Notes under the pieces: generated by a model
What the model saw: only the letters and a program-made list of their open reading frames with translations
The model's database searches: none
Told to the model about the DNA's origin: nothing
Translations under genes and position numbers: made by a program
Part shown: positions 15,632-63,846 of the stretch, piece by piece
How positions within the stretch are numbered: the stretch's first letter is position 1
Layout: every line of letters begins with the position of its first letter
NCBI GenBank assembly: GCA_016183245.1
Contig: JACPEY010000011.1
Span: 5,568 to 69,567 of the forward strand
Source: Candidatus Daviesbacteria bacterium
GTDB taxonomy: Bacteria; Patescibacteriota; Microgenomatia; Daviesbacterales; UBA10151
Reading direction: 5' to 3'
Length of the DNA stretch: 64,000 nucleotides

Positions 15632-15703
15632 TGAGCCGGCAGGGGATCGAACCCTGGACCAAGAGCTTAAAAGGCTCCTGCTCTACCGCTGAGCTACCGG
15701 CCC
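15632..15703 (-). tRNA. tRNA-Lys(UUU).
   Basis: A manual cloverleaf gives acceptor GGGCCGG/CCGGCUC, D-arm GCUCAGCGGUAGAGC, anticodon loop CUUUUAA and T-arm GGGUUCGAUCCCC. No CCA is encoded. Confidence 0.8.
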
Positions 15704-15784
15704 TCGCCCGCAACGCCAGCAAGCTGGCTTGCGTGGCGGGCGGGCCTCCTTGACGCAAACCAAACTCGTTTAACTAGCATTGCA

Positions 15785-16027
15785 TTAAATTCTATCCTTC
15801 AAAAACCGTCTGCCAAATCCTGTTTTAAAATACTGTTCCCTTCTAAACGCCTTATGCTTATCTGTGCAACCTTCAAAATAAACTAACTCTAATGGCCTTC
15901 TACTTTTAGTTGATTCTACTAACCCATCATTATGATCTTTAAGTCTTTGTTTTATAACAGATGTTGCTCCAACATAGAGCTTTCCATCCTTAATGCTTTT
16001 AAGAACATAAGTATAATAGAAACTCAT
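15785..16027 (-). CDS. GIY-YIG nuclease-superfamily protein (UPF0213-like).
   Basis: The motifs YTYVLKS...KLYVGATSVIKQRLKDHN are present. Confidence 0.65.
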   Translation of the reverse strand: MSFYYTYVLKSIKDGKLYVGATSVIKQRLKDHNDGLVESTKSRRPLELVYFEGCTDKHKAFRREQYFKTGFGRRFLKDRI

Positions 16028-27813: not shown

Positions 27814-30800
27814 ATGGCTGACAACACCTTTGAATATGACTTAACTTTGCCGCTGCCTCCAGAGGTAAAGGATAAGGATGTTGAGGTAAAAGCTGCTGAA
27901 ACAGAAGCAGAATTGCCTTCTGCACCTAAATTAGATGAGCCAAAAGAAAAGTTAGCAGAAACGATTACTATTAAAGGGTTAAATCACTTTACAGTTTTTG
28001 TGATAACTTTGCCCAGTCCGGATACTGCACAAAGGGTATTAATTAATGAAATATTACCAAACCCGACAGCCGGGGCAGAATGGGTAGAGCTGTTTAATAA
28101 TGGAACACAACCTGTTAATTTAGCAGCCGGGACTGGCTGGACTATAAGAAATTCAGCCTCTGATGCTCAATCTTTGAGTGCTTTGGGGACTATTCCGGCA
28201 GCAGGCAGGGTTGTATTTGAAGCCCCTGCAAACTGGTTAAGCAATGTTGCCCCAGAGACTGTTACTTTATCAAACGAGTTGGGTACAGCAGTTGATACAG
28301 TAACCATATCTTTAGTTGCGCCCGGATTTGCAATTGATCACTATCCTCTGGCAGGCGAGTCAGTCGGCAGAAAGACAGATGGCGTGGCAGAATGGGTAAT
28401 CTTTACAGCTCCGACAAAAGGGACAGCTAATTTACTACCGGCAACCGGCGGTGCGGGAAAATTGGCTGAAGTTGGACCAATTGCCCCAGCAGGTGGATTA
28501 AGAGCAGGATTCCCGGTTTGGTATAAAGATTCCAATGGTTTGGCTCTTGATTTGATGGAAGCGGCAGATCCGAGGGGGATTTCTGATCCTGTTGACCCTG
28601 GTAATCCATTTTCTGCTCAAATAGGATTTAATGCTGAAGGATTTTGGTGGTCTGCCGAAGCAGATATGTCAACCTCAGGACCAAATGGTGCTCTCCTAGT
28701 TCAGGCTATAGAAGCTGCATTTGCCGGAGAAGCTGCAGTAGATGGTGAGCAATCAGCCTTTGCCAGAGCCAGAATCAGGATTGATGTTGCCGAACCTGGA
28801 ACTTATACTGTAACTTATCCTTATGGCACAAAAACTTACACTGTAGCTTTGGCTGATATCGGCCCGGGATACGAGATTAATGATACTGCCGATATTGGTT
28901 GTTTTGCCATTCCGGGAGTACTAAATTGTGCCAGTGCGACCCAGCCTAATTTCTCAACGGTGCTAAATGGAGGAATCGGACCATTCTTAACCTGGGATAC
29001 CTTCAATACAAATCCGGCTCTTTCGGATCCGCTTTTGACTGATCCAATTACCGGAAGAAGATATGTAGGTAGTGTTTTAGGCGGGCCTCATGTAGTCAAA
29101 GGTTCTCCAACAGGTAATAATTTCTTTAGAATTGCCGGGCCAAATATCGGAGGACCAGGAGTAAATGTAGTAGAAACAAACCTATTTACTGTTACCGGAA
29201 GATTGGCAGATGCTACAGGTCCTGTTATAACCCTGCATGGGGCAAACCCAGTCAACGTCAATCAGAATGCTGTTTATACAGATGCAGGAGCCACAGCCTT
29301 GGACGACCAGGACGGAAATATAACTGCTAACATTCAAGTAACCGGTCTTCCTGTAGACACTTCAACTTTGGGATCTAAAACTGTGACCTACACCGTTACT
29401 GATAGTGCAGGCCATACTACAACAGCAACTAGAACTGTTAATGTAGTAGCTGTTGGAGGTATAGATATTACGGCTCCTGTTATTACGGTGACTGGTGCTA
29501 ATCCAGCAACAGTTACTGCCGGAACTCCGTATAACGATGCCGGGGCAACAGCATTAGATAATGTAGACGGAGATATTACAGCCAATATTGTGACCACCGG
29601 TCTACCAATAAATACTTCTGCACCCGGTTCATTTGCTGTAACTTATACTGTCTCTGATGCAGCCGGAAATCCTGCTACAGCCGCAAGGACTGTAAATGTG
29701 GTAGCAGATATTATTCCGCCGGTAATTACTGTGCTTGGATCAAATCCGGTAAACGTGCTTGTTGGTGCGGCATATACTGATGCCGGCGCTACAGCAGTAG
29801 ATAATGTTGATGGAAATGTAACAGTAAATATCACAACTACCGGCTTACCTATTAATACTGCTGCAGCCGGTTCATTTGCTGTAACTTATAATGTTACTGA
29901 TGCTGCAGGCAATACTGCTACAGCTACCAGAACTGTAAATGTAGCTGCAACTCTTCCTGCAGGACTTGTTGAAGTCGGACCCGTAGCCCCAGCAGGTGGA
30001 TTAAGAGCAGGATTCCCGGTTTGGTATAAAGATTCTAATGGTTTGGCTTTGGAATTAATGGAGGCAGCAGATCCAAATGGTATTTCTGCTGCTGTTGACC
30101 CTGGTAATCCATTTTCAGCTCAAATTGGTTTTGGTGCTGAAGGCTTTTGGTGGTCAGCCGATGCCAGTATATCTACTTCGGGGCCAAATGGTGCAATTTT
30201 AGTACAAGCTGTTGAAGCTGCATTTGCCGGAGAAGCTGCAGTAGATGGTGAGCAATCAGCCTTTGCCAGAGTCAGAATCAGGATTGATGTTGCCGAACCA
30301 GGATCTTATACTGTAACTTTCCCCTATGGTACAAAAACATATGTGGTAGATGCTGTAGGTGCAGGGTTTGAAATTAATGACACCTCAGATATTGGCTGTT
30401 TTGCCCAAATAGGAGTTGCCAGTTGTAATCAGGCCACACCTCCTAATTTCTCTACTGTACTTGCAGGTCAAATCGGACCATTCTTGACCTGGGATACCTT
30501 CAATACAAATCCGGCTCTTTCGGATCCTATCCTGACCAATATTGCAACCGGGAGAAGATATGTAGGTATTCCGGTGCCTCATGCAGTCAAAGGTTCTCCA
30601 ACAGGTAATAATTTCTTTAGAATTGCCGGGCCAAATATCGGAGGACCAGGAGTAAATGTAGTAGAGACTAATCTGTTTGATGTTACCGGACGCATAGCTG
30701 ATGTAACTCCTCCGGTTATCACTCTAAATGGTGCCAACCCGGATACTGTTGTACAAAATGCAGTATATGTGGACCCGGGATCCATAGCTTTGGATGACTT

Positions 30801-33606
30801 TGATGGAAATGTAACAGGTAGTATTGTAACTACAGGTGTGCCTGTTGATACATCTATAGTAGGCGCAAAAACTGTTACTTATACAGTTACTGATATAGCT
30901 GGTAATACAGCCGTTGCAACTAGAACAGTCAATGTAACCGGAGTAGATAACACTGCACCTGTCATTACCTTACTAGGTACTAGCCCTGTGGATGTCACAG
31001 TTGGCACGGCTTATGTTGATGCCGGTGCTACTGCTTTAGATAATGTAGATGGTGATCTAACAGCCAGTATAGTAACTGTTAATCCTGTAAACAGCAATGT
31101 TATTGGTACCTATACAGTTACTTACAACGTCTCAGATGCTGCCGGAAACCCTGCAATAGAAGTTACCAGGACGGTTAACGTAGTGGCTACGACTGATGTT
31201 ACTCCCCCAGTTTTCAGTGCTATTTCTGCAAGTTCTAATAATGCCAATCCGGCTTTGGGCAAAAGCGGTGATGTTGTGACTGTTTCTTTTGTCACCAGCG
31301 AGCCATTATCTGCCAATCCGACAGTGACTATTGGTGGTGGAGCAATGACTTTTGTCTCTCTGGCTGGTTCAACATACACATTTAACCGCACTCTGGATGG
31401 TACAGAGATTGAAAGCGGACAAATTTCCATCACCGGTTCTGATGCAGCCGGTAATCCAGGTGCCAATAATACTGCTACTTTTGCCTTGGACTTTGCACTT
31501 CCAACAGGATCGATTGCTATAAACGGTGGCGCCCTTTATACGACCACGACTGCAGTTATTTTAAATTTTTCCGGAGTTTCAGCTGATGTGACTCAAATTC
31601 AACTTCGAAACGGCACAGTTGGAGCTTTTCAGACAGCAATTCCTTTTGAAAATCCCCACGCTTATGTTTTACCTAATACCCAAGGGGTAAGAGTTGTATC
31701 TGTCCGTTTTATTGACGCAGCCGGAAATCAAAGTACCGGAGTAATTTCAGATGATATTACTTTTGATAATGTTGCCCCGACTGATCCATTGGACGTAGTT
31801 TCTACCAGCCACACTGCTAATGTATCTACGGACAATACTATTGATATGGCCTGGTCTGCGGCTGGTGCTCCTCTAGGAGCAAATGACTTGGTTAGCGGAG
31901 TAGCCGGCTATTCTTATTCTTTCACTCAAGGGGCAACTGATTTGCCTGATACTACAGTGGATTTGCCTTCAACTGCCTTGGGTGTAACCAGTGAAGCTCT
32001 AACAAATGGTACTTGGTTTTTCCACCTTAGAACTCTGGATAATGCCGGAAGTTGGACTTCAACTGTTCATGTTGGGCCATTTAATATTGATGTTGTGGTT
32101 CCGACTACAGGTACAATTTCCGGTTTGGTATTTCAGGATACAAACGCTAACCGCACCAAAGATGCGGGTGAACCGGTTCTGCCCGGATGGACGCTGTATC
32201 TGGATGCAAATAACAACAGGGTGCTGGATGCAGGGGAGGTATTAATTGTAAGCGATGCCGCAGGTAATTATCAGTTTGCAGGACTGCTTCCAGGAACTTA
32301 TAATATTAATGAAGTTAAACAGCCAAACTGGGGTATCAGGTTACCGGGAGACAATGGTTATACACAAATATTGGCTGCAGGGGATAATATCACAGGTAAG
32401 GATTTTGGGAATATAGTTACCCGGTCGGTTAGCGGCCAGGGCCAGGGAGGATTTGCAACAACTACCGGAACAACTCTGACGCCATCGGTTGTGTCAGTTG
32501 GCGACTCTGTCATTGATGTCCCTTCAAACGGGGGTACAAGCAAAGTGACAGTCCCTGCTGATACTATAATTACCGAAAGCACCGGCGCAGTTTTTGATTC
32601 GGCAGCTTTGGCAGCCTCTGACCCGGCTGGTGCGGTGATATCAGGGTTGGGAACAGGTGTTGTAGTTCGGGGAAAACTGCAATGGGGAGTTCCCAACTTA
32701 GGGTTAGTATTCTCAAACCCGATTAATTTGGAAATCTTTGTCGGTACAGATCTTAATGGGCAGGTACTTGATATACTGCGCTCAGTTGAAGGTACAACCA
32801 ACTGGACAAGTGACGGAATTGTGCCTCCGGGCAAATGCACGGTTGCAAACGGCATATGTGCGTTTCAGGCTACAAAAGCTTCATATTATATTGCAGCTCA
32901 AACTGTCAGTCCAACCCCGACACCTACTCCGACTCCTGCATCTGCTACTACCAGCGGTGGTGGAGATAGCGGAAGCGGTGGGGGAAGCGCCAGTGCTCCG
33001 TCTTGCAATGATCCTGTTGCAGGAGGCGCACCGACTTTACTCTCGGCAACTGTATCAGGAGACAATCAAGTTACCTTAACCTGGAGCAAAGCTGCTGATC
33101 CTGTAACACACTATGTAGTAGCTTACGGGTTATCAGCAGGCAACCCGCAATTTGGAAATCCAAATGTTGGCGGGAAAGAGACAACTTCTTATACAGTAAA
33201 AGATCTTTCAGGCGGTACAACTTATTTCTTCAGAGTCAGGGCAGGAAACGGTTGTAATGCCGGTCCTTACTCAAACGAAATATCAGCAACTCCCGGCGGA
33301 AGACAGACAACAGGTCCTGCAGCTGGTTTCCAGGCTGGAGTGTTAGGTGCTTCGACCTCGCTGGGAGAAGGCACGGGTGGTGCTGATCCTAATAACCCAG
33401 ACGCTCCTGATGCAGGCAAGGGTGAAGATGCAGTTACGGAAGGGATTTCTGATATCCTGGGTGCAGATCAGAAAGTAAGCGATAAACCTAACCAGTCATT
33501 TGGAGGTTTCTTGAATACTCAAAGGGCTATTATCGGGGTGTTGCTGCTATTCGTCGCACTCTTTGCTGCTAATGCTTATCGTCTAAGGGCCCGTCGCCGC
33601 AGTTAA
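27814..33606 (+). CDS. Giant 1930-aa surface protein with a lamin-tail domain, two copies of a ~250-aa module, about 6 DUF5011 Ig-like repeats, a Cna-B/SdrD-like fold, a PT linker, FN3, and a C-terminal TM plus basic tail.
   Basis: The lamin-tail motif INEILPNPTAGAEWVELFNNG is present. The DUF5011 repeats have the form PVITLxGxNPxxVxxGxxYxDxGATAxDxxDGxxT. The FN3 domain reads LTWSKAADPVTHYVVAYGL...YFFRVRAGN. The C-terminus is IIGVLLLFVALFAANAYRLRARRRS. Confidence 0.8.
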   Translation: MADNTFEYDLTLPLPPEVKDKDVEVKAAETEAELPSAPKLDEPKEKLAETITIKGLNHFTVFVITLPSPDTAQRVLINEILPNPTAGAEWVELFNNGTQPVNLAAGTGWTIRNSASDAQSLSALGTIPAAGRVVFEAPANWLSNVAPETVTLSNELGTAVDTVTISLVAPGFAIDHYPLAGESVGRKTDGVAEWVIFTAPTKGTANLLPATGGAGKLAEVGPIAPAGGLRAGFPVWYKDSNGLALDLMEAADPRGISDPVDPGNPFSAQIGFNAEGFWWSAEADMSTSGPNGALLVQAIEAAFAGEAAVDGEQSAFARARIRIDVAEPGTYTVTYPYGTKTYTVALADIGPGYEINDTADIGCFAIPGVLNCASATQPNFSTVLNGGIGPFLTWDTFNTNPALSDPLLTDPITGRRYVGSVLGGPHVVKGSPTGNNFFRIAGPNIGGPGVNVVETNLFTVTGRLADATGPVITLHGANPVNVNQNAVYTDAGATALDDQDGNITANIQVTGLPVDTSTLGSKTVTYTVTDSAGHTTTATRTVNVVAVGGIDITAPVITVTGANPATVTAGTPYNDAGATALDNVDGDITANIVTTGLPINTSAPGSFAVTYTVSDAAGNPATAARTVNVVADIIPPVITVLGSNPVNVLVGAAYTDAGATAVDNVDGNVTVNITTTGLPINTAAAGSFAVTYNVTDAAGNTATATRTVNVAATLPAGLVEVGPVAPAGGLRAGFPVWYKDSNGLALELMEAADPNGISAAVDPGNPFSAQIGFGAEGFWWSADASISTSGPNGAILVQAVEAAFAGEAAVDGEQSAFARVRIRIDVAEPGSYTVTFPYGTKTYVVDAVGAGFEINDTSDIGCFAQIGVASCNQATPPNFSTVLAGQIGPFLTWDTFNTNPALSDPILTNIATGRRYVGIPVPHAVKGSPTGNNFFRIAGPNIGGPGVNVVETNLFDVTGRIADVTPPVITLNGANPDTVVQNAVYVDPGSIALDDFDGNVTGSIVTTGVPVDTSIVGAKTVTYTVTDIAGNTAVATRTVNVTGVDNTAPVITLLGTSPVDVTVGTAYVDAGATALDNVDGDLTASIVTVNPVNSNVIGTYTVTYNVSDAAGNPAIEVTRTVNVVATTDVTPPVFSAISASSNNANPALGKSGDVVTVSFVTSEPLSANPTVTIGGGAMTFVSLAGSTYTFNRTLDGTEIESGQISITGSDAAGNPGANNTATFALDFALPTGSIAINGGALYTTTTAVILNFSGVSADVTQIQLRNGTVGAFQTAIPFENPHAYVLPNTQGVRVVSVRFIDAAGNQSTGVISDDITFDNVAPTDPLDVVSTSHTANVSTDNTIDMAWSAAGAPLGANDLVSGVAGYSYSFTQGATDLPDTTVDLPSTALGVTSEALTNGTWFFHLRTLDNAGSWTSTVHVGPFNIDVVVPTTGTISGLVFQDTNANRTKDAGEPVLPGWTLYLDANNNRVLDAGEVLIVSDAAGNYQFAGLLPGTYNINEVKQPNWGIRLPGDNGYTQILAAGDNITGKDFGNIVTRSVSGQGQGGFATTTGTTLTPSVVSVGDSVIDVPSNGGTSKVTVPADTIITESTGAVFDSAALAASDPAGAVISGLGTGVVVRGKLQWGVPNLGLVFSNPINLEIFVGTDLNGQVLDILRSVEGTTNWTSDGIVPPGKCTVANGICAFQATKASYYIAAQTVSPTPTPTPTPASATTSGGGDSGSGGGSASAPSCNDPVAGGAPTLLSATVSGDNQVTLTWSKAADPVTHYVVAYGLSAGNPQFGNPNVGGKETTSYTVKDLSGGTTYFFRVRAGNGCNAGPYSNEISATPGGRQTTGPAAGFQAGVLGASTSLGEGTGGADPNNPDAPDAGKGEDAVTEGISDILGADQKVSDKPNQSFGGFLNTQRAIIGVLLLFVALFAANAYRLRARRRS

Positions 33607-34514: not shown

Positions 34515-36548
34515 ATGGCAAAATTTCAAATTGTTTCAGATTTCAAACCTACTGGGGACCAACCACAAGCCATTGAGAAGCTGGTTAACGGGATAAATAA
34601 AGGCAGACAGCACCAGGTTTTGCTTGGAGTAACAGGTAGTGGTAAGACTTTTACTATGGCTAATGTTATCCAGAAAGTGCAAAGGCCGACCCTGGTTATT
34701 TCCCATAATAAAACTTTAGCAGGACAACTGGCTCAGGAGTTTAGGTCTCTGTTTCCAAATAACGCTGTTGAGTATTTTGTTTCTTATTATGATTATTACC
34801 AGCCAGAAGCGTATATTCCCCAATCAGATACTTATATTGAAAAGGAAACCCAGATTAATGAGGAAATAGAAAAGTTAAGGCTGTCTGCAACTGCATCACT
34901 GCTTAGCAGAAAAGATGTGATAGTAGTAGCCTCAGTTTCTGCAATCTATAACTTAGGTTCTCCAATAGAGTATGGCCAGGCAATACTGGAAATCGGCCCG
35001 GGCATGAAAGCCGGTATGCAGCAGGTGATGAAGATTTTGCAGAAGATGTTTTATAAGCGCAATGATATTGATTTTAAAAGGGGGACATACCGGGTCAGGG
35101 GTGATACGGTTGATATTTTTCCTTCATATAAAGATCAAGGTTACAGGTTACAATTTTTAGGGGACAGACTGGAGAGTGTAAGCGAGTTGGAGGTTGTGAC
35201 AGGTAATGTTTTAAAAATGCAGGGAACGCAGACTATTTATCCTGCCAAGCATTACATTACTTCGGAACAAAGGATTGTGCCGGGAATTAAACAAATAGAA
35301 ATCGATTTAGAATCTAGAGTCAAGAGTCTAGAGTCAAGTGGAAAATTGATAGAAGTGCAGAGATTAGACCAAAGGACAAATTATGATTTGGAGATGATCC
35401 GGCAATTCGGGTACTGCAACGGAATTGAAAATTACTCCCGCTATTTTGACGGCCGGAACCCCGGGGACCCTCCATATACTTTGCTTCATTACTTTCCTCA
35501 AGACTTTTTGCTCGTTATTGATGAATCCCATATGACTATCCCTCAAATTCGGGGGATGTATAACGGGGACCGGTCAAGGAAGGAAACTTTAATAGATTTT
35601 GGGTTCAGGCTGCCTTCGGCTTTGGATAACAGGCCCTTAAAGTTTGATGAGTTTATGAGGATGATTAACCAGGCAGTTTATGTTTCAGCCACTCCGGATG
35701 AGTATGAATTATCCCTAGCGAATTCATCCCACCTGGGGGGTGGTCTAGATAGGACACCTAGGGGTACTGATGGGTTGTATAGCCATGATGGGATAGCGGA
35801 ACAATTGGTCAGGCCAACTGGGATTTTGGATCCGGAGGTTTCTGTAAGACCGATTAAAGGTCAAATTGAAGATTTATTAAGAGAAATAGAGACTAGAGTC
35901 AAGAGTCAGGAAAGGGTATTGATAACAACTTTAACCAAAAGAACAGCTGAAGATTTGGCAGATTATTTAAAGGAAAAAGGCATTAAGGTGCACTATCTGC
36001 ACTCTGATGTTAAAACTTTAGAAAGAGGGGATATTTTACAGGCTTTGAGGTTGGGGGAATATGATGTGATTGTGGGAATTAATTTACTTCGGGAAGGTCT
36101 GGATTTGCCGGAAGTTTCACTGGTGGCAATTTTAGATGCTGATAAGGAAGGGTTTTTAAGGTCCAGGACTTCTTTGATACAGACCATGGGCAGGGCTGCC
36201 AGGCATGTTAGAGGGCAGGTAATTATGTATGCCGACATTGTCACCAAATCCATGAAAGCAGCCATAGATGAGGTAAAAAGAAGGAGGAAATATCAGGCAG
36301 ATTACAATAAAAAACATAATATTACGCCGAGAAGCATAGAAAAAGCTTTACGGGAAAGGTTGATAGAGAAAGTAGAGGAGCTGGAAGAATCTTTGGGTAA
36401 AACAGATTTAACTGTTGATGATATTCCGGTAGAGGATCGGAAAAAAATGATTAAAAACCTGGAAGCCCAGATGAAACAGGCAGCAGAACTTTTAGACTTT
36501 GAAGAAGCTGCCAAAATTCGGGATCAGATTAAGGAGTTAAGTATTTAG
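34515..36548 (+). CDS. uvrB: Excinuclease ABC subunit B (UvrB) carrying an in-frame REP insertion.
   Basis: Walker A (GVTGSGKT), helicase motifs, the VRPTGILDP block and the C-terminal UVR motif (EEAAKIRDQI) are present. The region between YEL and QLVRPTG is about 20 aa longer than the E. coli UvrB sequence recalled from memory, and it contains HLGGGLDRTPRGT. Confidence 0.9.
   Translation: MAKFQIVSDFKPTGDQPQAIEKLVNGINKGRQHQVLLGVTGSGKTFTMANVIQKVQRPTLVISHNKTLAGQLAQEFRSLFPNNAVEYFVSYYDYYQPEAYIPQSDTYIEKETQINEEIEKLRLSATASLLSRKDVIVVASVSAIYNLGSPIEYGQAILEIGPGMKAGMQQVMKILQKMFYKRNDIDFKRGTYRVRGDTVDIFPSYKDQGYRLQFLGDRLESVSELEVVTGNVLKMQGTQTIYPAKHYITSEQRIVPGIKQIEIDLESRVKSLESSGKLIEVQRLDQRTNYDLEMIRQFGYCNGIENYSRYFDGRNPGDPPYTLLHYFPQDFLLVIDESHMTIPQIRGMYNGDRSRKETLIDFGFRLPSALDNRPLKFDEFMRMINQAVYVSATPDEYELSLANSSHLGGGLDRTPRGTDGLYSHDGIAEQLVRPTGILDPEVSVRPIKGQIEDLLREIETRVKSQERVLITTLTKRTAEDLADYLKEKGIKVHYLHSDVKTLERGDILQALRLGEYDVIVGINLLREGLDLPEVSLVAILDADKEGFLRSRTSLIQTMGRAARHVRGQVIMYADIVTKSMKAAIDEVKRRRKYQADYNKKHNITPRSIEKALRERLIEKVEELEESLGKTDLTVDDIPVEDRKKMIKNLEAQMKQAAELLDFEEAAKIRDQIKELSI
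35727..35764. repeat. REP-like palindromic element, copy 3 (reverse orientation), inside the uvrB coding sequence.
   Basis: The sequence tcccacctggggggtggtctagataggacacctagggg matches the family consensus in reverse. Confidence 0.65.
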
Positions 36549-37803: not shown

Positions 37804-37840
37804 TTCCACCTGGGGGGTGGGCTAGGTAGGACACCTAGGG
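37804..37840. repeat. REP-like palindromic element, copy 4, at the 3' flank of the RAYT.
   Basis: The sequence tccacctggggggtgggctaggtaggacacctaggg matches the family consensus. Confidence 0.65.
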
Positions 37841-37862
37841 AAATTAGATAATTTCAAGTTTA

Positions 37863-38612
37863 CTATTCCTGTACGAGATGTTGAATTTTATGAAGTTGTC
37901 TTTGATAATCGGCATGGTCTTCGATAAATTTTTGATAAACCTTAGGATTTATGAAAAGGCTCATTATTATATCTAAATTACAAATCTCAGCCTTATTACT
38001 TAGATATTCAGAGAGGGATGACCAGGGATATGCAAATAAGGTATTTAGATCCTTTACGACGTAGGAGGTATAGGGATTGAGATGAATGTATCTTGAAATG
38101 TGTATTAACTGTTCATCAGTTATGATTAGTTTAGCTTTAAATTGATCTAAGAAGAGTGATCCATCGCGTTCTCTTTTAGTATTAGAATATCTAGTGTAGC
38201 TATTTTGAAAATTCCCCAAAAATTTAGAAATTCCCTTATCTTTAATTTGTTTTATTAAAAAATGGAAATGATTTGGCATTAAACAAAAAGCCAGAATTTC
38301 TACAAGCTTATCATCTTCTTTCCTCAAATTATCCATAATTTTTGTCCGGTCATCATTTGAAAGTGTTAGAAATTTTGATAATTTAGCGGGAAGATTGCTG
38401 AATCTATAGAAGTCGATTACAAGCCTTGCTCTTTTGTATTCCAGTTTATCTAAGAAAGTTGGTTGATGATTTATCCCACGGTTAAAAACATGATAAATTT
38501 GGTCATTAACTAAAGGTGTTAATCTACCCGGCATATTTCTTAGAATAACCCTGATATCCCTAGGTGTCAATAGAAATCCACCCCCCAGGTGGACTATACT
38601 ATTCAGATTCAA
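37863..38612 (-). CDS. REP-associated tyrosine transposase (RAYT; IS200/IS605-like Y1 HUH transposase).
   Basis: The N-terminal block YHVFNRGINHQPTF, the HUH motif NHFHFLI and the catalytic-Tyr block RYIHLNPY are present. The first ~17 codons (HLGGGFLLTPRD) are REP-encoded, so the real start may be the internal Met at ~38534. Confidence 0.75.
   Translation of the reverse strand: MNLNSIVHLGGGFLLTPRDIRVILRNMPGRLTPLVNDQIYHVFNRGINHQPTFLDKLEYKRARLVIDFYRFSNLPAKLSKFLTLSNDDRTKIMDNLRKEDDKLVEILAFCLMPNHFHFLIKQIKDKGISKFLGNFQNSYTRYSNTKRERDGSLFLDQFKAKLIITDEQLIHISRYIHLNPYTSYVVKDLNTLFAYPWSSLSEYLSNKAEICNLDIIMSLFINPKVYQKFIEDHADYQRQLHKIQHLVQE
38558..38594. repeat. REP-like palindromic element, copy 5, at the 5' end of the RAYT.
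   Basis: The sequence ccctaggtgtcaatagaaatccaccccccaggtgga matches the family consensus. Confidence 0.65.
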
Positions 38613-39294
38613 TACTGCCGGAGCCTTCCTGTTCTTTGTTGACTTGTGGGGGTTCTTCTCTTAGAAAATATTGAATTGTTGGATCATCTTCTTCCCATTT
38701 TTTTATTTTTTCGCGGGCTTCAGTGTTTAAATCGCGTCCTGCAACGGGGATTATTTCCTTTCCCAATCTGTTTAGGATTCCTAATACTTTAGGATCAGCA
38801 ATAGTTTCTCCTGTAACCGGATCCAAGTCTTCATAACTAACCGCAATTTCATCAAATGGGAGTTCTAATGCTCCTTGTAAAGGTATACTGGAAAAATGGC
38901 CTGTCTCCTTCCTTAATTTTTGTGCTTCCTCAATTGACAAAGTTCCTCTTGCTACCCCTAAAGGAATATAAGGATTTGAGGGTTTTTCTTCCTCATTAAG
39001 AGTCCCTCCCTGTAAAGTAATTTCCTGATAGGTTTTAAAGTCAAGTGCCATATACTTAGTATAATTTATTTGATCACGCTCTGCTACTTCACTCTTTAAT
39101 AATCTTGCAAAATGGGGTAAAATAATAGTTTGATTTTTCGAAGAAAAATAGTCCCACGGTTTATTTTTCGGGGAAAATATGGCTATAGACAAAATTACTA
39201 TTAAAGGTGCTAGAGAACATAATTTAAAAAATATTGACCTGGAAATTCCTAAGAACAAGTTAGTGGTTTTAACCGGGATCTCCGGTTCAGGCAA
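38599..39294 (-). CDS. Hypothetical protein with an uncertain start (the annotated 5' end overlaps the uvrA start).
   Basis: The ORF overlaps the first ~115 nt of uvrA on the opposite strand. An internal Met near 39054 is the more plausible start. Confidence 0.3.
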   Translation of the reverse strand: MPEPEIPVKTTNLFLGISRSIFFKLCSLAPLIVILSIAIFSPKNKPWDYFSSKNQTIILPHFARLLKSEVAERDQINYTKYMALDFKTYQEITLQGGTLNEEEKPSNPYIPLGVARGTLSIEEAQKLRKETGHFSSIPLQGALELPFDEIAVSYEDLDPVTGETIADPKVLGILNRLGKEIIPVAGRDLNTEAREKIKKWEEDDPTIQYFLREEPPQVNKEQEGSGSIESE

Positions 39295-42265
39295 GTCTTC
39301 CCTGGCTTTTGATACCCTTTATGCCGAAGGTCAAAGAAGGTATGTAGAATCTTTATCTTCCTATGCCCGGCAGTTTTTGGGAGTCATGGATAAGCCTGAT
39401 GTAGATTTGATTGAAGGTCTTTCTCCTGCGATTTCTATTGACCAAAAAGGTGTCTCACACAATCCTCGCTCTACAGTTGGAACCACCACGGAAATTTACG
39501 ATTATTTAAGGCTTTTATTTGCCCGGGTTGGCCATCCTCATTGTCCTGTATGCGGTAGGGAAGTTGCCAAGATGAGCGTAGAGCAAATTACTCAACTTGT
39601 CATTCTGGGGAGAAGCGGAGCGACGACTCCAGAATCTATTACTAAGGATTCTGGACAAGCCAGAATGACAAAAAGGGGCAGGAGAATAATGATTTTGGCG
39701 CCGGTGGTTAAAGACAGGAAAGGCGAGTACAGCCAGTTATTTGAAGATTTCAGGAAAAAAGGGTTTTCTAAAGTCAGGGTTGGCGGATATATAATAGACC
39801 TGGCTGATGATTTGGTATTAATTAAAACAAATAAGCATACGATTGATCTGGTTGTAGATAGGCTTGTTTTAGATAAGAGTGTCATTCTGGGAGTCCCGAC
39901 GAAGTCGCGGACGACACCAGAATCAACGAATCAGTTAGATTCTGGACGCGCCCCTTCAGGGCCTGCCAGAATGACAAAAGAAAGTAAAGATAGTACTCAA
40001 GCAGACAATATTTACTCAAGATTGTCACAAAGCATTGAGACAGCGCTTAAATTTGGTGAGGGATCAGTGATAGTTTCTGATGTGCTGGATGCTTCTTTGG
40101 AATTCCCTCAAAATCCTAAAAAAATGGAGGACCATCTTTACTCGGAAAGATTTGCCTGTCCTGTAGACAATATCTCGCTGAGCGAGATTGAACCCAGACT
40201 TTTGTCTTTTAACTCTCCTCACGGAGCCTGTCCAAAATGTTCAGGATTAGGGAATCTTTTAGAAATTGATGCAGCTACAATTTTAAATCCAATTCTCTCT
40301 ATAGCAGAGGGCGGAATTCTGCCTATGTCAAAGCTTGCCACAAGTGATACCTGGTATACAAGGCTTATTGAAGCAGTGGGTAAAAAATATGGCTTTGATA
40401 CAAATACAAGGCTGGGGAATCTGACAGCTGAAGCCAAAAAGATATTGCTTTATGGTGGCGCAGATGAAGAATTTAAAGTAGAAGGCAGGAACAGACAGGG
40501 GAAGTGGACTCATTTTTATTCTGAATTTGCCGGGCTGGTGCCTTATCTTAAGGAAAGATATACAACAACTGAGTCGGATTTTGTTAAGGCCGAAATTGAA
40601 AAATATATGGTCAAAGAAACCTGTCCGAAGTGTAAAGGAGCAAGACTTAAAGATGAAGCACTTTCAATAACTATAGATGGATTAAACATTGCAGAAGTTA
40701 CCAGCCAGTCAATTGTTCAGGCTTTGGACTGGATCAAAAGAATTTCCGCTCGTAATGATGGGAAGGTATTAAGTGAGCGTGAGGCACAGATAGCAAGTCC
40801 TATTTTAAAAGAAATTAATGCCAGGTTGCAGTTTTTGATTGATGTGGGATTGGATTATCTGACTTTAGACAGGGCTGCCATGACTCTGGCGGGAGGAGAA
40901 TCACAAAGGATCAGGCTTGCTTCCCAGATCGGTTCAGGGCTTTCCGGAGTATTGTATGTTTTAGACGAGCCTTCAATAGGGTTGCATCAAAGGGATAATA
41001 CCAGGTTGATTGAAACTTTAAAAAAACTCAGGAATCTGGGTAATACTGTGATTGTTAATGAACATGATGCTGAAACAATGGAGGCATCGGATCTTCTGAT
41101 CGAAATTGGTCCGGGAGCCGGTGAACACGGCGGGCAGATTGTAGCTATAGGAACGCCTGATGAAATTAAGAAAAATCCCGCATCGACAACCGGCCAGTAT
41201 TTATCCGGAAATAAAAAAGTCGGAGCAAATATTCTTCAAGCACAGCGAGAATCTTCCTTAAAAACTATTAATAAATATGTGCTTAAAATTTTGGGTGCTT
41301 CTGAACATAACTTAAAAAATATTGACGTTTCTTTCCCCCTGGGAAAATTTATAGTAATTACAGGTGTTTCCGGTTCAGGTAAATCAACTTTAATTCATGA
41401 TATTTTATTTAAAGCTCTAGCCCAAAAAGTTTACCGCTCCAGGGAAAAACCCGGGCTGCATAGGGGCCTGGAAGGAACAGAGAATATAGATAAGGTAGTA
41501 TTGGTAGACCAGTCGCCTATTGGCCGCACTCCCCGTTCAAATCCGGCTACATATACCGGGGCATTTACCCACATCCGGGAGCTGTTTGCCCAAAGCCCGG
41601 AAGCAAAAATCAGAGGCTATAACCCGGGCAGATTTTCCTTTAATGTCAAAGGAGGAAGGTGTGAAGTTTGTGAGGGAGAGGGTACTTTAAAGATTGAGAT
41701 GCAGTTTTTACCGGATGTGTATGTAAGTTGTGAGTCATGTAACGGAGCAAGGTATAACAGGGAAGCTTTGGAAATCTATTTTAAGGAGAAAAATATTGCC
41801 CAGGTTCTGGATATGACGGTTGAAACTGCTTTAAAGTTTTTTGAAAATATTCCTCAGGTTAAAAACAAGCTGCAGGTTTTATTTGATGTGGGGTTGGGGT
41901 ACATTAAGCTGGGACAGCCTGCACCTACTCTTTCAGGAGGAGAAGCCCAAAGGATTAAACTTTCTTCAGAATTATCAAAACGTTCTACAGGACAAACAGT
42001 ATATATTCTTGATGAACCTACAACAGGCTTGCATTTTGCCGATATCGAAAGACTTCTAATGATCCTGAGGAAGTTAGTTAATGTGGGGAATACAGTAATA
42101 ATAATAGAACATAACCTGGATGTGATAAAAAATACTGACTGGGTAATAGATTTAGGCCCTGAAGGCGGAGACAAGGGGGGGAAAATTGTCGCCCAAGGTA
42201 CTCCTGTCCAAATTGCCAAAATTAAAGATTCTTACACCGGCATGTATCTTGCAAAAATACTTTAA
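39179..42265 (+). CDS. uvrA: Excinuclease ABC subunit A (UvrA) carrying two in-frame palindromic-element insertions.
   Basis: Two ABC modules are present, each with Walker A GxSGSGKS (GISGSGKSSL, GVSGSGKSTL), signature LSGGE and Zn-finger CxxC pairs. At 1028 aa it is longer than the ~940 aa typical of UvrA. The extra segments are ...TTPESITKDSGQARMTKRG... and ...TTPESTNQLDSGRAPSGPARMTKES... Confidence 0.9.
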   Translation: MAIDKITIKGAREHNLKNIDLEIPKNKLVVLTGISGSGKSSLAFDTLYAEGQRRYVESLSSYARQFLGVMDKPDVDLIEGLSPAISIDQKGVSHNPRSTVGTTTEIYDYLRLLFARVGHPHCPVCGREVAKMSVEQITQLVILGRSGATTPESITKDSGQARMTKRGRRIMILAPVVKDRKGEYSQLFEDFRKKGFSKVRVGGYIIDLADDLVLIKTNKHTIDLVVDRLVLDKSVILGVPTKSRTTPESTNQLDSGRAPSGPARMTKESKDSTQADNIYSRLSQSIETALKFGEGSVIVSDVLDASLEFPQNPKKMEDHLYSERFACPVDNISLSEIEPRLLSFNSPHGACPKCSGLGNLLEIDAATILNPILSIAEGGILPMSKLATSDTWYTRLIEAVGKKYGFDTNTRLGNLTAEAKKILLYGGADEEFKVEGRNRQGKWTHFYSEFAGLVPYLKERYTTTESDFVKAEIEKYMVKETCPKCKGARLKDEALSITIDGLNIAEVTSQSIVQALDWIKRISARNDGKVLSEREAQIASPILKEINARLQFLIDVGLDYLTLDRAAMTLAGGESQRIRLASQIGSGLSGVLYVLDEPSIGLHQRDNTRLIETLKKLRNLGNTVIVNEHDAETMEASDLLIEIGPGAGEHGGQIVAIGTPDEIKKNPASTTGQYLSGNKKVGANILQAQRESSLKTINKYVLKILGASEHNLKNIDVSFPLGKFIVITGVSGSGKSTLIHDILFKALAQKVYRSREKPGLHRGLEGTENIDKVVLVDQSPIGRTPRSNPATYTGAFTHIRELFAQSPEAKIRGYNPGRFSFNVKGGRCEVCEGEGTLKIEMQFLPDVYVSCESCNGARYNREALEIYFKEKNIAQVLDMTVETALKFFENIPQVKNKLQVLFDVGLGYIKLGQPAPTLSGGEAQRIKLSSELSKRSTGQTVYILDEPTTGLHFADIERLLMILRKLVNVGNTVIIIEHNLDVIKNTDWVIDLGPEGGDKGGKIVAQGTPVQIAKIKDSYTGMYLAKIL
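39599..39669. repeat. MITE-like palindromic element (GTCATTCTGG...CCAGAATGAC termini), copy A, inside uvrA.
   Basis: A 10-bp perfect terminal inverted repeat and an internal palindrome ccagaatc...gattctgg are present. Confidence 0.6.
39881..39975. repeat. MITE-like palindromic element (GTCATTCTGG...CCAGAATGAC termini), copy B, inside uvrA.
   Basis: It has the same 10-bp terminal inverted repeat as copy A and is about 95 bp long. Confidence 0.6.
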
Positions 42266-52652: not shown

Positions 52653-52996
52653 CTTCTACTACGCTTTTCAGGCTATAGGATTAGTTATAGGAGGTGATTA
52701 TCGTAAATGTTACCTTTGGATGTGATTAGAAAATATTATCCTGACTTATCAGATGAAGAATTGAAAAAAATACAGGTGTTTGTTTACCAGTTATGTTGTG
52801 GATTAATGCAATACTTTTATGGAGACAACTGGGAAGGGGATACTGGTGATCCGGACTTGAAAAATGAAGAAGGTTGATATAACAACCTAATCATGAGTTC
52901 GAATCCTAAGCGGTCTCTCGTTTATAGGATTAAATCTAAGCAATTTTTCTCGAATTGCCGAAGCTAAAATTTTGCAAAAGCACTTATATCATCCTG

Positions 52997-53068
52997 TGAG
53001 CCGGGTGGGATTCGAACCCACGGCCAATGGATTAAGAGTCCATTGCTCTACCGCTGAGCTACCGGCCC
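52997..53068 (-). tRNA. tRNA-Lys(CUU).
   Basis: A manual cloverleaf gives acceptor GGGCCGG/CCGGCUC, anticodon stem AUGGA/UCCAU, loop CUCUUAA and T-arm GUGGGUUCGAAUCCCAC. Confidence 0.8.
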
Positions 53069-53263
53069 GTTATAATCTATCTTTCAAAAACTTTCTTCCA
53101 AATCCTGTCTTAAAATATCTTTCTCTTTTCAATTCAATGAGTCCCGCCCGCAACGCCTGAGCAAGCTTCAACATCAAACTACATTGTATATTCTAACAAT
53201 TTATGCTCAAAATGTCATTTCTGGGAACAGAGGGAACAGAAAAGAGGGGTGCTGTAATAATCA

Positions 53264-62792: not shown

Positions 62793-63803
62793 ATGAAAAT
62801 TGGTTATATCGGTCTTGGCAGGATGGGGAAGAATATGGTCCTCAACCTTTTGGAAAAAGGGATTGAGGTGGTGGCATATAACCGGTCCCCTGAGCCCAGG
62901 GAAGAGCTGCAAAAAGAAGCCAGCCAGTTAAAAAGCGGATCAGAGAATTTAAAGGTAGCAGATAATCTGGGAGAGTTGGTGACAGAGTTAAGGAATAATA
63001 AAGAAGATCCTGGACAAGCCAGGATGACAGAAGGGGAGGACGGAATTGTGATCTGGTTAATGATCTCTGCCGGTGCAGCCATTGACGCTGTTTTGGAGGA
63101 ATTAAGCGATAAATTAACTTCCGGAGATCTGGTAATTGATGGCGGAAATTCCCTTTATACAGATACTTTAAGGCGGGGTAAGATGCTTTCCCAAAAAGGA
63201 ATCCATTACATGGATGCCGGCACTTCCGGCGGAATTGAGGGAGCAAGGAATGGGGCTTGTATCATGGCAGGCGGTTCTGAGGAGGATTTTAAGAAAGTGG
63301 AGCCTGTATTAAAAGCTGCTGCACAACCGGGCGCTTATGCTTATCTGGGTCCTCTGGGTGCAGGTCACTTTGCCAAAACAATTCATAACGGAATTGAGTA
63401 TGGCATGATGCAGGCAATCGGGGAAGGTGCGGCAATTTTGAAAAATTCCGGGTTTCCTTATGATTTGCGGGAAGTTTTCCGTATTTACAATACCGGCTCA
63501 ATTATTGAATCAAGGCTGGTGGGATGGACTTTGGCAGAACTTAAAAATGACCCTGAACTTGCCAATATTACCTCTGTTATCGGTTCAGGAGGTGGTGCAG
63601 GTAAAACAAAAGGAGAAGCTCACTGGACAGTGGAACTGGCTAAAAAATTAGGGGTAGGTGTGCCGGTTATAGAAGCATCGGTAGCAGTCCGGGACAACTC
63701 TGATCAGGATAAGGAAGATTCTCCCAATGGTTTCCGTAATAAAATAGTTGCTGCCATGCGCTGGCAATTCGGCAGACATCCGGTTAAGAAACAAATTCCC
63801 TAG
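62793..63803 (+). CDS. gnd: 6-phosphogluconate dehydrogenase (decarboxylating), short YqeC/Gnd-like form. It carries a probable partial palindromic-element insertion, and its stop codon is supplied by a REP.
   Basis: NAD-binding IGYIGLGRMGKNM and the catalytic blocks GTSGGIEGARNG and KTIHNGIEYGMMQAIGEG are present. The extra segment NNKEDPGQARMTEGEDG at 63001-63030 resembles the right end of the uvrA elements. The TAG stop lies inside REP copy 6. Confidence 0.8.
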   Translation: MKIGYIGLGRMGKNMVLNLLEKGIEVVAYNRSPEPREELQKEASQLKSGSENLKVADNLGELVTELRNNKEDPGQARMTEGEDGIVIWLMISAGAAIDAVLEELSDKLTSGDLVIDGGNSLYTDTLRRGKMLSQKGIHYMDAGTSGGIEGARNGACIMAGGSEEDFKKVEPVLKAAAQPGAYAYLGPLGAGHFAKTIHNGIEYGMMQAIGEGAAILKNSGFPYDLREVFRIYNTGSIIESRLVGWTLAELKNDPELANITSVIGSGGGAGKTKGEAHWTVELAKKLGVGVPVIEASVAVRDNSDQDKEDSPNGFRNKIVAAMRWQFGRHPVKKQIP

Positions 63804-63833
63804 GTGTTCTATCTAGACCACCCCCCAGGTGGA
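63798..63833. repeat. REP-like palindromic element, copy 6, overlapping the gnd stop codon.
   Basis: The sequence ccctaggtgttctatctagaccaccccccaggtgga matches the family consensus. Confidence 0.65.
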
Positions 63834-63846
63834 TAAAAATAAAGTT

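What the first reader, a model, noticed from the sequence alone, without database searches (positions are those of the whole stretch)
39599..39975. Second repeat family (GTCATTCTGG...CCAGAATGAC inverted termini) inserted in frame twice in uvrA
UvrA here is 1028 aa, against the ~940 aa typical of the family. Two extra segments, around residues 140-165 and 235-270, coincide exactly with two copies of an element bounded by a perfect 10-bp terminal inverted repeat GTCATTCTGG/CCAGAATGAC. Both are read in a frame that yields ...TTPES...DSGxARMTK... The Zn-finger and ABC motifs flanking them are intact. A terminal-inverted-repeat, MITE-like element is therefore repeatedly colonising a DNA-repair gene without destroying it.
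Basis: partly seen in the sequence, partly recalled or inferred. Interest (0 to 1): 0.8.

Follow-up and report, generated by a model that had tools for sequence, protein, structure and literature searches.

The report
Palindromic repeat pairs inside uvrA
Two pairs of small hairpin-forming DNA repeats of an already described class (CGTC/TGTC-tagged REP elements, relatives of the Rickettsia palindromic elements) are inserted in frame in the DNA-repair gene uvrA of a Candidatus Daviesbacteria (candidate phyla radiation, CPR) genome, adding two floppy loops to the protein; the kind of event is known, but the same loops are occupied by different repeat families in related genomes.

Summary
UvrA (39179-42265, 1028 aa) carries two extra segments, residues 141-164 and 235-266. 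They coincide with two elements, 39599-39669 (71 nt) and 39881-39975 (95 nt), each bounded by GTCATTCTGG/CCAGAATGAC. Most orthologs and all matched solved UvrA structures lack both segments.

Each element is a pair of inverted hairpin units: TGTC tag, stem ATTCTGG, a loop, then GAATC, with the tags facing outwards. This is the head-to-head dimer layout of the CGTC-tagged REP superfamily (Di Nocera et al. 2013). That paper already reports in-frame REP dimers in DNA-repair genes, including a uvrA with two dimers. It also equates Rickettsia RPE-4 and RPE-6 with this class.

A fifth, single unit with a compensatory stem change lies in frame in a 6-phosphogluconate-dehydrogenase-like gene. The same unit occurs in many phyla, mostly outside genes.

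Three points go beyond the paper:
- The host is a CPR bacterium.
- Among 120 UvrA orthologs, 22 carry such dimers at one codon position, in at least 8 stem families scattered over the tree.
- Elements at the same site differ by 7-15% where synonymous sites differ by 55-64%.

Verdict: a new member of a known kind. How the elements move remains unknown.

The parts
39179..42265 (+). uvrA ORF (1028 aa), host gene of the two dimers
   Evidence: ORF. 100% identical to an NCBI Candidatus Daviesbacteria UvrA, with UvrA Pfam domains. Matches solved UvrA chains at E about 1e-118.
39599..39669 (+). Dimer 1 (71 nt, tags outwards), encoding VILGRSGATTPESITKDSGQARM(T), UvrA residues 141-164
   Evidence: Sequence. 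RNA fold -31.8 kcal/mol, z = -6.3. 20-residue gap against solved UvrA. Absent from 115 of 120 orthologs.
39598..39636 (+). Dimer 1, left unit: T-GTC tag, stem ATTCTGG (extends to about 10 bp with one bulge), long loop, CCAGAAT, tail C
   Evidence: Unit scan. The subfamily GTCATTCTGGGGAG...CGACTCCAGAATC is also seen in L002, L062, L081 and L098.
39647..39670 (-). Dimer 1, right unit (tag on the minus strand): GATTCTGG-ACAAG-CCAGAAT-GAC-A, 7-bp stem and 5-nt loop
   Evidence: The identical 23-nt unit occurs in Nitrospirota, Nitrospinota, Patescibacteria and Levybacteria loci.
39881..39975 (+). Dimer 2 (95 nt, tags outwards), encoding VILGVPTKSRTTPESTNQLDSGRAPSGPARM(T), UvrA residues 235-266
   Evidence: Sequence. 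RNA fold -48.1 kcal/mol, z = -6.35. Query residues 232-277 stand opposite chain residues 232-234 of 9gxk. The same nucleotide position holds other families in orthologs.
39880..39924 (+). Dimer 2, left unit: T-GTC tag, stem ATTCTGG, 26-nt structured loop, CCAGAAT, tail C
39938..39976 (-). Dimer 2, right unit: GATTCTGG, 20-nt structured loop, CCAGAAT-GAC-A
63006..63028 (-). Single unit GATCCTGG-ACAAG-CCAGGAT-GAC with a compensatory T-A to C-G stem change, read in frame as DPGQARMT
   Evidence: (z = -3.45). Most orthologs lack residues here. The identical protein is found in three independent Logan assemblies.
62793..63803 (+). 6-phosphogluconate-dehydrogenase-like ORF (336 aa), host of the single unit
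   Evidence: Pfam NAD_binding_2 and 6PGD. PDB matches.

Best explanation
The two segments are head-to-head dimers of a short hairpin repeat belonging to the CGTC/TGTC-tagged REP superfamily. That class includes Rickettsia RPE-4 and RPE-6 and Neisseria dRS3.

Shown here:
- Each unit is an unpaired TGTC tag, a stem starting AT (ATTCTGG), a loop, the complementary arm and a short tail.
- Two units lie in inverted orientation with the tags outside.
- The dimers are inserted in uvrA so that GTC is read as a codon and no stop arises. This adds about 24 and 32 residues at two places where solved UvrA structures have only a few residues, in what I recall, from memory of the B. stearothermophilus structure paper, to be the UvrB-binding domain (boundaries not checked here).
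- The nucleotide sequence of the elements is conserved far above the saturated synonymous background of the same gene.
- Different stem families occupy exactly the same codon position in related genomes.

Inferred:
- The units are selfish, non-autonomous DNA spread through single-stranded hairpin intermediates by an enzyme supplied in trans. That enzyme could be an HUH/Y1-type or some other, still unknown, one.
- Copies inside genes persist only where an in-frame, stop-free reading gives a tolerated disordered loop.
- Resident copies are re-inserted or overwritten (gene conversion or targeted re-insertion at the conserved GTCAT...ATGAC ends) rather than drifting neutrally.

The inserted peptides themselves most likely have no function.
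For: Architecture: all five units in the window carry TGTC + AT-stem, and both dimers have the tags outside. This matches the published definition: tag CGTC or TGTC, AT at stem positions 1-2, head-to-head (HH) dimers predominant.

Reading frame: published CGTC dimers encode VIPAKAGI...IPAFAGMT, VVPAKAGT...IPASAGMT and VIPWLDHGI...CGMT. That is the same V-I...M-T frame as VILG...ARMT here.

Link to canonical units: 49 of 141 ATTCTGG units in other genomes have an inverted GTC-tagged partner within 130 nt. Partner stems are ATTCCCG (12), ATTCCAG (11), ATTCTGG (8) and ATTCCGG (6).

Hairpin maintenance: compensatory stem changes occur in the 6PGDH unit (ATCCTGG/CCAGGAT) and in the P0075 ortholog.

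Insertion, not native sequence: shown by the PDB gaps and the ortholog alignment. A low-confidence AlphaFold model (mean pLDDT 65.6) has pLDDT below 50 and no secondary structure at 146-165 and 238-273.

Precedent: Thioalkalivibrio uvrA has two REP dimers and both Opitutus terrae uvrA genes have double inserts. uvrB, uvrC, polA, dnaE2, recB, ligase and tRNA synthetase genes are also hit. Here the same unit lies in frame in uvrC (L070), an ATP-dependent DNA ligase (L120) and ArgRS (L023) of other genomes.

Turnover: 22 of 120 orthologs carry GTCAT-type dimers at site 2 in at least 8 families. Parsimony on a neighbour-joining (NJ) tree of the orthologs needs 20 gain/loss steps, and the nucleotide position is identical.

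Non-neutral conservation: four-fold degenerate sites differ by 55-64%, while same-site elements differ by 5/62 (window vs P0020) and 4/60 (P0002 vs P0004).
Against: - The perfect stem is 7 bp, not the published 8-9 bp.
- Three of the five units have 14-26-nt structured loops instead of 4-5 nt.
- The tail is C plus variable bases, not CCA.
- Only five units occur in 64 kb and none is intergenic, so a dispersed extragenic family is not shown for this genome.
- No transposase is linked to the family. The adjacent Y1_Tnp gene is flanked by a different repeat.
- Insertion boundaries and any target duplication could not be fixed, because the flanks are variable and low in complexity.
- The NJ tree behind the gain/loss count is nearly star-like (p-distances 0.12-0.21), so the number of events is uncertain.
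- Expression and activity of the decorated UvrA are untested.
Confidence: 0.8

Rival explanations
1. Classical MITE: a deletion derivative of an insertion sequence, bounded by that element's 10-12-bp terminal inverted repeats and moved by its DDE transposase with target-site duplication.
For: Perfect 10-bp inverted termini, 11-12 bp with flanks. Sizes are 71-95 nt and there is more than one copy. At site 2, several filled orthologs have AAAAGT before and AAGAGT after the element, which could be a duplication.
Against: The termini are arms of self-contained hairpin units. These units occur singly (63006-63028, and 83 of 141 matches elsewhere) and pair with units of different stems. No transposase gene with these ends is in the window. 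The putative duplication is imperfect and sits in a K/S-rich low-complexity flank. The architecture matches the published REP dimers point by point.
Confidence: 0.07
2. The hairpins are kept because they act in cis on the uvrA mRNA or DNA. They might slow translation between domains, control mRNA processing or stability, or bind a protein. On this reading, nucleotide conservation reflects function rather than mobility.
For: Element nucleotides, including third codon positions, are conserved 4-9 times better than four-fold sites. Stems show compensatory changes. Stable RNA folds, z about -6. Di Nocera et al. argue that many REPs act as RNA elements.
Against: 94 of 120 orthologs have nothing at site 2, and the occupied ones are scattered over the tree. 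A needed regulatory element would not be so dispensable. The same units are mostly intergenic in other phyla. No Rfam family matches. No direct evidence was obtained.
Confidence: 0.1
3. Adaptive remodelling of UvrA: the inserted loops in the UvrB-binding domain change UvrA-UvrB loading and tune repair or the mutation rate. This is the mutator idea raised for REP-tagged repair genes.
For: Both inserts lie between the two halves of Zn module 1, in what I recall to be the UvrB-binding domain (plus my memory of the B. stearothermophilus UvrA structure). Repair genes recur as hosts, both in the literature and here: uvrC and a DNA ligase in other genomes. In about 230 kb of Daviesbacteria DNA held here, 14 strictly detected units lie inside uvrA and 2 more lie just upstream of it, out of 18 plausible ones.
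Against: Peptide sequences differ completely between families at the same site, so no protein-level motif is conserved. The segments are predicted to be disordered. The enrichment estimate is biased, because I chose insert-bearing orthologs. No functional data exist.
Confidence: 0.1
4. Lineage-specific native UvrA loops whose palindromy is coincidental, or an assembly artefact.
For: The two loops are variable in length in many orthologs.
Against: Chance is excluded. Orthologs 86% identical (P0006) lack both segments. The same family occurs at site 1 in four independent assemblies. The same unit occurs in at least 120 loci of many phyla. The 6PGDH copy is identical in three independent read sets.
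Confidence: 0.02

Closest known systems
CGTC-tagged REP superfamily (Di Nocera, De Gregorio, Rocco 2013, BMC Genomics 14:522; PMC3733652)
   Same: Unpaired tag (CGTC, or TGTC as here). Stem beginning AT. Predominantly head-to-head dimers with the tags outside. Heterodimers are common. Intragenic in-frame copies read as V-I-...-M-T. Repair genes, including uvrA, are hit twice. No transposase gene is flanked by the units.
   Different: The stem is ATTCTGG (7 bp perfect) rather than 8-9 bp of the ATTCCCGC type. Three of five units carry 14-26-nt structured loops. The tail is not CCA. The host is a CPR bacterium, whereas the paper's CGTC hosts were five phyla, mostly Alphaproteobacteria. All copies seen in this genome fragment are intragenic.
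Rickettsia palindromic elements (RPE-1 of Ogata et al. 2000, recalled from memory; RPE-4 and RPE-6 equal CGTC-4 and CGTC-1 according to PMC3733652)
   Same: Palindromic repeats inserted in frame in many protein-coding genes, including uvrB, uvrC and dnaE, apparently without inactivating them. RPE-4 and RPE-6 share the tagged-hairpin architecture.
   Different: RPE-1 is longer (about 100-150 bp) and unrelated in sequence. The host is an obligate intracellular alphaproteobacterium. Family-swapping at a fixed site has not, to my knowledge, been described for RPEs.
REPINs and GTAG REPs mobilised by RAYT transposases (Nunvar 2010, Bertels and Rainey 2011, Ton-Hoang 2012; recalled from memory and summarised in PMC3733652)
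   Same: Inverted doublets of tagged hairpins that behave as non-autonomous mobile units. A Y1/HUH transposase gene is present next door (37863-38612).
   Different: The tag is TGTC, not GTAG. The Y1_Tnp gene is flanked by an unrelated 40-bp double-hairpin repeat, not by these units.
Bacterial MITEs (for example Correia, Nezha, Coxiella QMITE1; PMC5896051, PMC10969869)
   Same: Short, structured, non-coding repeats that can overlap ORFs and add peptides.
   Different: MITEs are defined by IS-derived terminal inverted repeats and target duplications. Here the repeat unit is the hairpin itself.

Membership tests
CGTC-tagged REP superfamily | Unpaired terminal tag CGTC (variants TGTC, CCTC) | tested here: met
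   TGTC precedes the stem in all five units of the window. CGTC is seen at the same site in ortholog P0075. Definition.
CGTC-tagged REP superfamily | Stem of 8-9 bp with A and T at stem positions 1 and 2 | tested here: inconclusive
   The AT start is met in all units. The perfect stem is 7 bp (ATTCTGG), extendable to about 10 bp with a bulge in one unit. In other genomes the same unit often has an 8-bp stem, ATTCTGGC.
CGTC-tagged REP superfamily | Loop of 4-5 nt | tested here: inconclusive
   Met in two units (ACAAG). The other three have 14-26-nt loops with their own small hairpins. The paper notes exceptions with other loop lengths.
CGTC-tagged REP superfamily | Short unpaired 3-bp tail, consensus CCA | tested here: not met
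   Tails here are CTA, CAA, CCT, CTA and CTT. Many copies of the same unit in Proteobacteria and Chloroflexota do end GAATC-CAG.
CGTC-tagged REP superfamily | Predominantly head-to-head dimers (tags outside), often heterodimers | tested here: met
   Both uvrA elements have the tags outside (definition). 49 of 141 units elsewhere have such a partner, mostly with a different stem.
CGTC-tagged REP superfamily | Multi-copy family dispersed in the genome, mostly intergenic | not testable with these tools
   Only 64 kb of the source genome is held. It has five units, all intragenic. In other genomes 101 of 141 units are outside ORFs of 150 aa or more.
CGTC-tagged REP superfamily | No transposase gene flanked by the units | tested here: met
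   The Y1_Tnp genes in the window and in L207 are flanked by other palindromes.
MITE | Terminal inverted repeats shared with an autonomous insertion sequence | tested here: inconclusive
   Inverted termini are present. No element with a transposase and these ends is in the window or in the flanks of the orthologs. A whole-genome search was not possible.
MITE | Target-site duplication | tested here: inconclusive
   An imperfect AAAAGT/AAGAGT repeat flanks site 2 in several orthologs, but in a low-complexity K/S-coding context. None is evident at site 1.
GTAG REP / REPIN-RAYT system | GTAG tag, with units flanking the RAYT gene | tested here: not met
   The tag is TGTC. The RAYT-like gene 37863-38612 is flanked by CCACCTGGGGGGTGG...CTAGGT..ACCTAG repeats.
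Rickettsia palindromic elements | In-frame palindromic insertion in conserved ORFs, absent from orthologs | tested here: met
   Sequence similarity to the RPE consensus sequences was not tested. The relation rests on the paper's equation of RPE-4 and RPE-6 with CGTC-4 and CGTC-1.

The most novel reading that the evidence does not exclude
CGTC/TGTC-tagged REPs have no known transposase, and it is an open question whether they still move. In Daviesbacteria they may be actively homing elements. Fixed nucleotide positions in uvrA (two loops) and in the 6PGDH-like gene would then be re-targeted or overwritten again and again by dimers of different stem families. This could work through recognition of, or recombination at, the conserved GTCAT...ATGAC ends, which would make uvrA a preferred landing pad. 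Three results fit this reading: near-random scatter of 8 or more families at one codon across 120 orthologs, element conservation 4-9 times above the synonymous background, and sister orthologs (P0002 and P0015) that share flanks but differ in both units by coordinated stem changes.
Probability: 0.3. Interest if true: 0.7.

Novelty: new member of a known kind. Interest (0 to 1): 0.45.

Why it matters
In-frame palindromic repeats in repair genes have been described in Rickettsia, Sphingomonas, Opitutus and Thioalkalivibrio, but never explained. No mobilising enzyme is known for CGTC-tagged REPs.

This locus extends the phenomenon to the candidate phyla radiation, which has small, gene-dense genomes. 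It also offers a natural series of empty, filled and family-swapped alleles at exactly the same codons of a universally conserved gene. Such a series is the material needed to ask three questions. Are these repeats still moving? What do they target? Do the added loops, apparently within the UvrB-binding domain, matter for repair?

There is also a practical point. Peptides such as VILG..PES..DSGQARMT, VIPAKAGIQ, DSRFRGND or IATSPSAPRND in CPR proteins should be read as translated repeats, not as protein motifs.

Tried and rejected
- Exact-protein look-up of the window's UvrA found no contig. The rest of the source genome could therefore not be censused.
Only L125-L127 were close.
- A search with the concatenated insert peptides, meant to list all host proteins, found nothing.
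- The Rfam scan of 39400-40200 gave only a chance CsrC hit, 14.9 bits against a threshold of 61.
- The AlphaFold model is of modest quality (mean pLDDT 65.6, pTM 0.34). I used it only to note that both inserts are below pLDDT 50 and unstructured. I did not run a fold search on it.
- I tried to fix insertion boundaries and target duplications from empty and filled orthologs. The flanks are too variable.
- I considered whether the family-1 repeat around the Y1_Tnp gene is itself TGTC-tagged. The TGTC lies in the loop of its first hairpin, so I rejected this.
- I considered an intein, an intron or programmed removal. Nothing supports these. The sizes are 24 and 32 codons, the frames are open, and there are no splicing motifs.
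- The genome-wide scan pattern (18 fixed bases, 31 gap lengths, 596 Gb) would give several hundred chance hits. The hits count as real only because 83 of 141 have a 5-6-nt loop and 49 have tagged partners.
Full report
**1. The observation**

The window encodes a 1028-aa UvrA at 39179-42265. It is 100% identical to an NCBI protein of a Candidatus Daviesbacteria bacterium (Microgenomates, candidate phyla radiation).

- The decamer GTCATTCTGG occurs exactly four times in 64 kb: 39599+, 39660-, 39881+ and 39966-. All four are in uvrA.
- The paired pattern has a chance expectation of 0.01.
- The two elements are 71 nt (39599-39669) and 95 nt (39881-39975). They encode residues 141-164 and 235-266, read as VILGRSGATTPESITKDSGQARM(T) and VILGVPTKSRTTPESTNQLDSGRAPSGPARM(T).
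- Both fold much better than shuffled sequence, as RNA (z = -6.3 and -6.35) and as DNA (z = -5.6 and -5.9).

**2. They are insertions**

- Against solved UvrA chains (9gxk, 3zqj, 2r6f, 3pih), site 1 is a 20-residue gap. At site 2, query residues 232-277 stand opposite three residues of the solved chain.
- Among 120 orthologs of 73-81% identity (957-1087 aa), only P0012, P0020, P0038 and P0075 share the site-1 family. None shares the site-2 family.
- The nearest ortholog with DNA in hand is P0006, 86% identical. It lacks both segments.
- A low-confidence AlphaFold model (mean pLDDT 65.6) has pLDDT below 50 and no secondary structure at 146-165 and 238-273.
- Both sites lie between the two halves of the first zinc module. 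From memory of the B. stearothermophilus UvrA structure, that is the UvrB-binding domain.

**3. Anatomy**

Each element is two hairpin units in inverted orientation.

- The layout is T-GTC-ATTCTGG-loop-CCAGAAT-C, a spacer of 10 or 13 nt, then G-ATTCTGG-loop-CCAGAAT-GAC-A.
- All units carry TGTC before a stem that starts AT.
- One unit has the minimal form, a 7-bp stem with the 5-nt loop ACAAG. The other three have 14-26-nt loops with small internal hairpins.
- A fifth, single unit lies at 63006-63028 in a 6-phosphogluconate-dehydrogenase-like gene. It is GATCCTGG-ACAAG-CCAGGAT-GAC, with a compensatory T-A to C-G change in the stem, and is read in the same phase as DPGQARMT.
- A scan for GTC + perfect stem of 7 bp or more finds 9 sites in the window, against 3.9 expected. 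Only these five are GTCAT-type. None is intergenic.

**4. Distribution elsewhere**

The hosts include Acidobacteria, Alpha-, Beta- and Gammaproteobacteria, Nitrospirota, Nitrospinota, Chloroflexota and many Patescibacteria.

- Chance alone would give several hundred hits for such a pattern. However, 83 of 141 matches have a total length of 23-24 nt, meaning a 5-6-nt loop.
- 49 of 141 have an inverted GTC-tagged hairpin within 130 nt. Partner stems are ATTCCCG (12), ATTCCAG (11), ATTCTGG (8) and ATTCCGG (6).
- The unit is therefore real and widespread. It forms tags-outside dimers, often with a partner of the canonical ATTCCCG type.
- 101 of 141 units lie outside ORFs of 150 aa or more.
- Units inside genes include in-frame DSGQARMT in UvrC (L070), an ATP-dependent DNA ligase (L120), arginyl-tRNA synthetase (L023), a glycosyltransferase, a restriction-modification methylase and a MiaB-like enzyme.

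**5. What is known**

Di Nocera et al. 2013 (PMC3733652) define a CGTC-tagged REP superfamily with these features:
- a terminal CGTC tag, often TGTC or CCTC;
- stems of 8-9 bp that almost always start AT;
- loops of 4-5 nt and a short tail;
- predominantly head-to-head dimers, with the tags outside;
- frequent heterodimers;
- no dedicated transposase.

They equate Rickettsia RPE-6 and RPE-4 with CGTC-1 and CGTC-4, and Neisseria dRS3 with CGTC-1.

They list intragenic copies with their peptides: VIPAKAGI, SFPRKRES, DSRFRGND, and dimers such as VIPAKAGIS...EIPAFAGMT. That is the same V-I...M-T frame as here.

They stress that many hosts are replication and repair genes. The Thioalkalivibrio uvrA carries two REP dimers, and both Opitutus terrae uvrA genes carry double inserts.

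The present case is therefore a new member of that kind. It deviates in three ways: a 7-bp stem, expanded loops in three units, and a non-CCA tail.

No paper in the searched library describes this phenomenon in Patescibacteria.

**6. What goes beyond the paper**

(a) Site 2 is a hot spot.
- 22 of 120 orthologs have a GTCAT...ATGAC dimer right after L-D-K-S/T. They fall into at least 8 peptide families: VILSEAKN..PQDD, VIASEAKQS..IATSPSAPRND, VIPAKAGIQ..LDSRMRGND, VIPSERSSRGNLD..PRND, VILRAQPEGS..SAQND, VIPSKEGIQ..PGMT, VISS..ARND and VILG..ARMT.
- Parsimony on a neighbour-joining tree of the orthologs needs 20 gain/loss steps. Counting family states gives 25 steps, against 25.7 for shuffled labels.
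- DNA of eight filled orthologs shows the same nucleotide position and hairpin dimers with z from -4 to -6. GTC is always read as a codon.
- Five of these orthologs share the right flank AAGAGTAAAAATAGT. In the window this flank is 4 nt longer, which restores the frame for the 95-nt element.
- The sister orthologs P0002 and P0015 (90% identical) share flanks. Their dimers differ by coordinated stem changes in both units, ATTCT..AGAAT versus ATTGC..GCAAT.

(b) Site 1 holds ATTCTGG dimers in 5 orthologs and a single unit (VILSEVEGS type) in 19.

(c) The 6PGDH-like gene repeats the pattern. About 16 of 120 orthologs carry single reverse units of several families (KIATSPSAPRND, DRHAPFDSAQGSRDD and others) in the same loop.

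(d) Four-fold degenerate sites of uvrA are saturated between these genomes, at 55-64% difference. Same-site elements differ by only 5/62 (window vs P0020) or 4/60 (P0002 vs P0004). The elements are therefore not drifting neutrally. The constraint acts on nucleotides, not on the peptide.

(e) In about 230 kb of Daviesbacteria DNA held here, 14 of 18 plausible units lie inside uvrA and 2 more lie just upstream of it. This count is biased by my choice of insert-bearing orthologs.

**7. Mechanism**

Shown:
- tagged hairpin dimers;
- in-frame, stop-free reading;
- placement in regions where solved UvrA structures have only a few residues;
- compensatory stem changes;
- nucleotide-level conservation;
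- recurrent occupation of one site by different families.

Inferred:
- The units are selfish, non-autonomous repeats moved in trans, probably via single-stranded hairpins.
- Within genes, selection keeps only copies that give tolerated loops. One of three phases runs into the TGA of GAATGAC.
- Resident copies are renewed by re-insertion or by gene conversion at the conserved GTCAT/ATGAC ends.

A Y1 (IS200-like) transposase gene lies 570 bp upstream of uvrA, at 37863-38612 (PF01797). A 43%-identical homolog lies just downstream of uvrA in L207. Both are flanked by other palindromes, so a link to the TGTC units is speculation only.

**8. Rivals**

- A classical IS-derived MITE is unlikely. The units occur singly and form heterodimers, and no parent element was found.
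- A cis-regulatory RNA or DNA role, or adaptive remodelling of UvrA, cannot be excluded. Both are weakened because the inserts are dispensable in most orthologs and no peptide motif is conserved.
- Native loops, chance and assembly artefact are refuted.

**9. Verdict**

- Novelty: a new member of a known kind.
- The hot-spot turnover in a universally conserved gene is the most interesting lead.

Noticed in passing
window 37863-38612 (-), with 37805-37847 and 38551-38597; solo copies at 19057-19097, 35729-35763 and 63797-63837: A Y1/IS200-like transposase gene (PF01797, RAYT-like) sits directly upstream of uvrA. It is bracketed by inverted copies of a 40-bp double-hairpin repeat (CCACC-CCCCA-GGTGG plus CTAGGT-GTCCT-ACCTAG), and solo copies of that repeat lie elsewhere in the window. 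A 43%-identical homolog lies just downstream of uvrA in ortholog locus L207 (12953-13684).
   Followed up: partly
window 62793-63803 and orthologs P0121-P0240: The loop between ELVxxL and VIWLM of the 6PGDH-like protein is a second hot spot. About 16 of 120 orthologs carry single tagged hairpin units of different families there (KIATSPSAPRND, DRHAPFDSAQGSRDD, DPGQARMT).
   Followed up: partly
UvrA orthologs, positions after window residues about 210, 524 and 684-698: There are further insertion hot spots in Daviesbacteria UvrA with repeat-like peptides: SPRSAGGAG/SPRGEAG, HPVLEDRQ..TGSINN, LDSRMRGND and DSRFRGND. Ortholog P0080 (1087 aa) has inserts at four or more sites. DNA of L122, L207 and L209 shows canonical ATTCCCGC units there.
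   Followed up: partly
window 40157-40168 (UvrA residues 327-330): The fourth ligand of the first zinc module is Asp (C-P-V-D), not Cys. Asp 330 is invariant in all 44 aligned Daviesbacteria orthologs.
   Followed up: no
window 28467-30875: There are large internal direct repeats: 300-nt blocks repeated at about 1.5-kb spacing with 75-86% identity, and 243-nt tandem units at 29208-29948. This is probably a repetitive surface-protein gene.
   Followed up: no
window 15631-15847 and 52996-53132: Two tRNA-Lys genes (anticodons TTT and CTT, minus strand) are each adjacent to a 63-nt stretch that is 79% identical between the two loci (15785-15847, about 80 nt from the first gene; 53070-53132, abutting the second).
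   Followed up: no
window 38599-39294 (-): A 231-aa ORF with no Pfam match spans the gap between the transposase gene and uvrA and overlaps the start of uvrA on the opposite strand. It may be spurious.
   Followed up: no
L121 2936-2962 and L209 9967-9989: In two orthologous loci a TGTC-tagged unit (stems ATTCTTGGG and ATTCCTGC) sits 10-40 nt upstream of the uvrA start codon. The promoter-proximal region of uvrA is therefore also hit.
   Followed up: no
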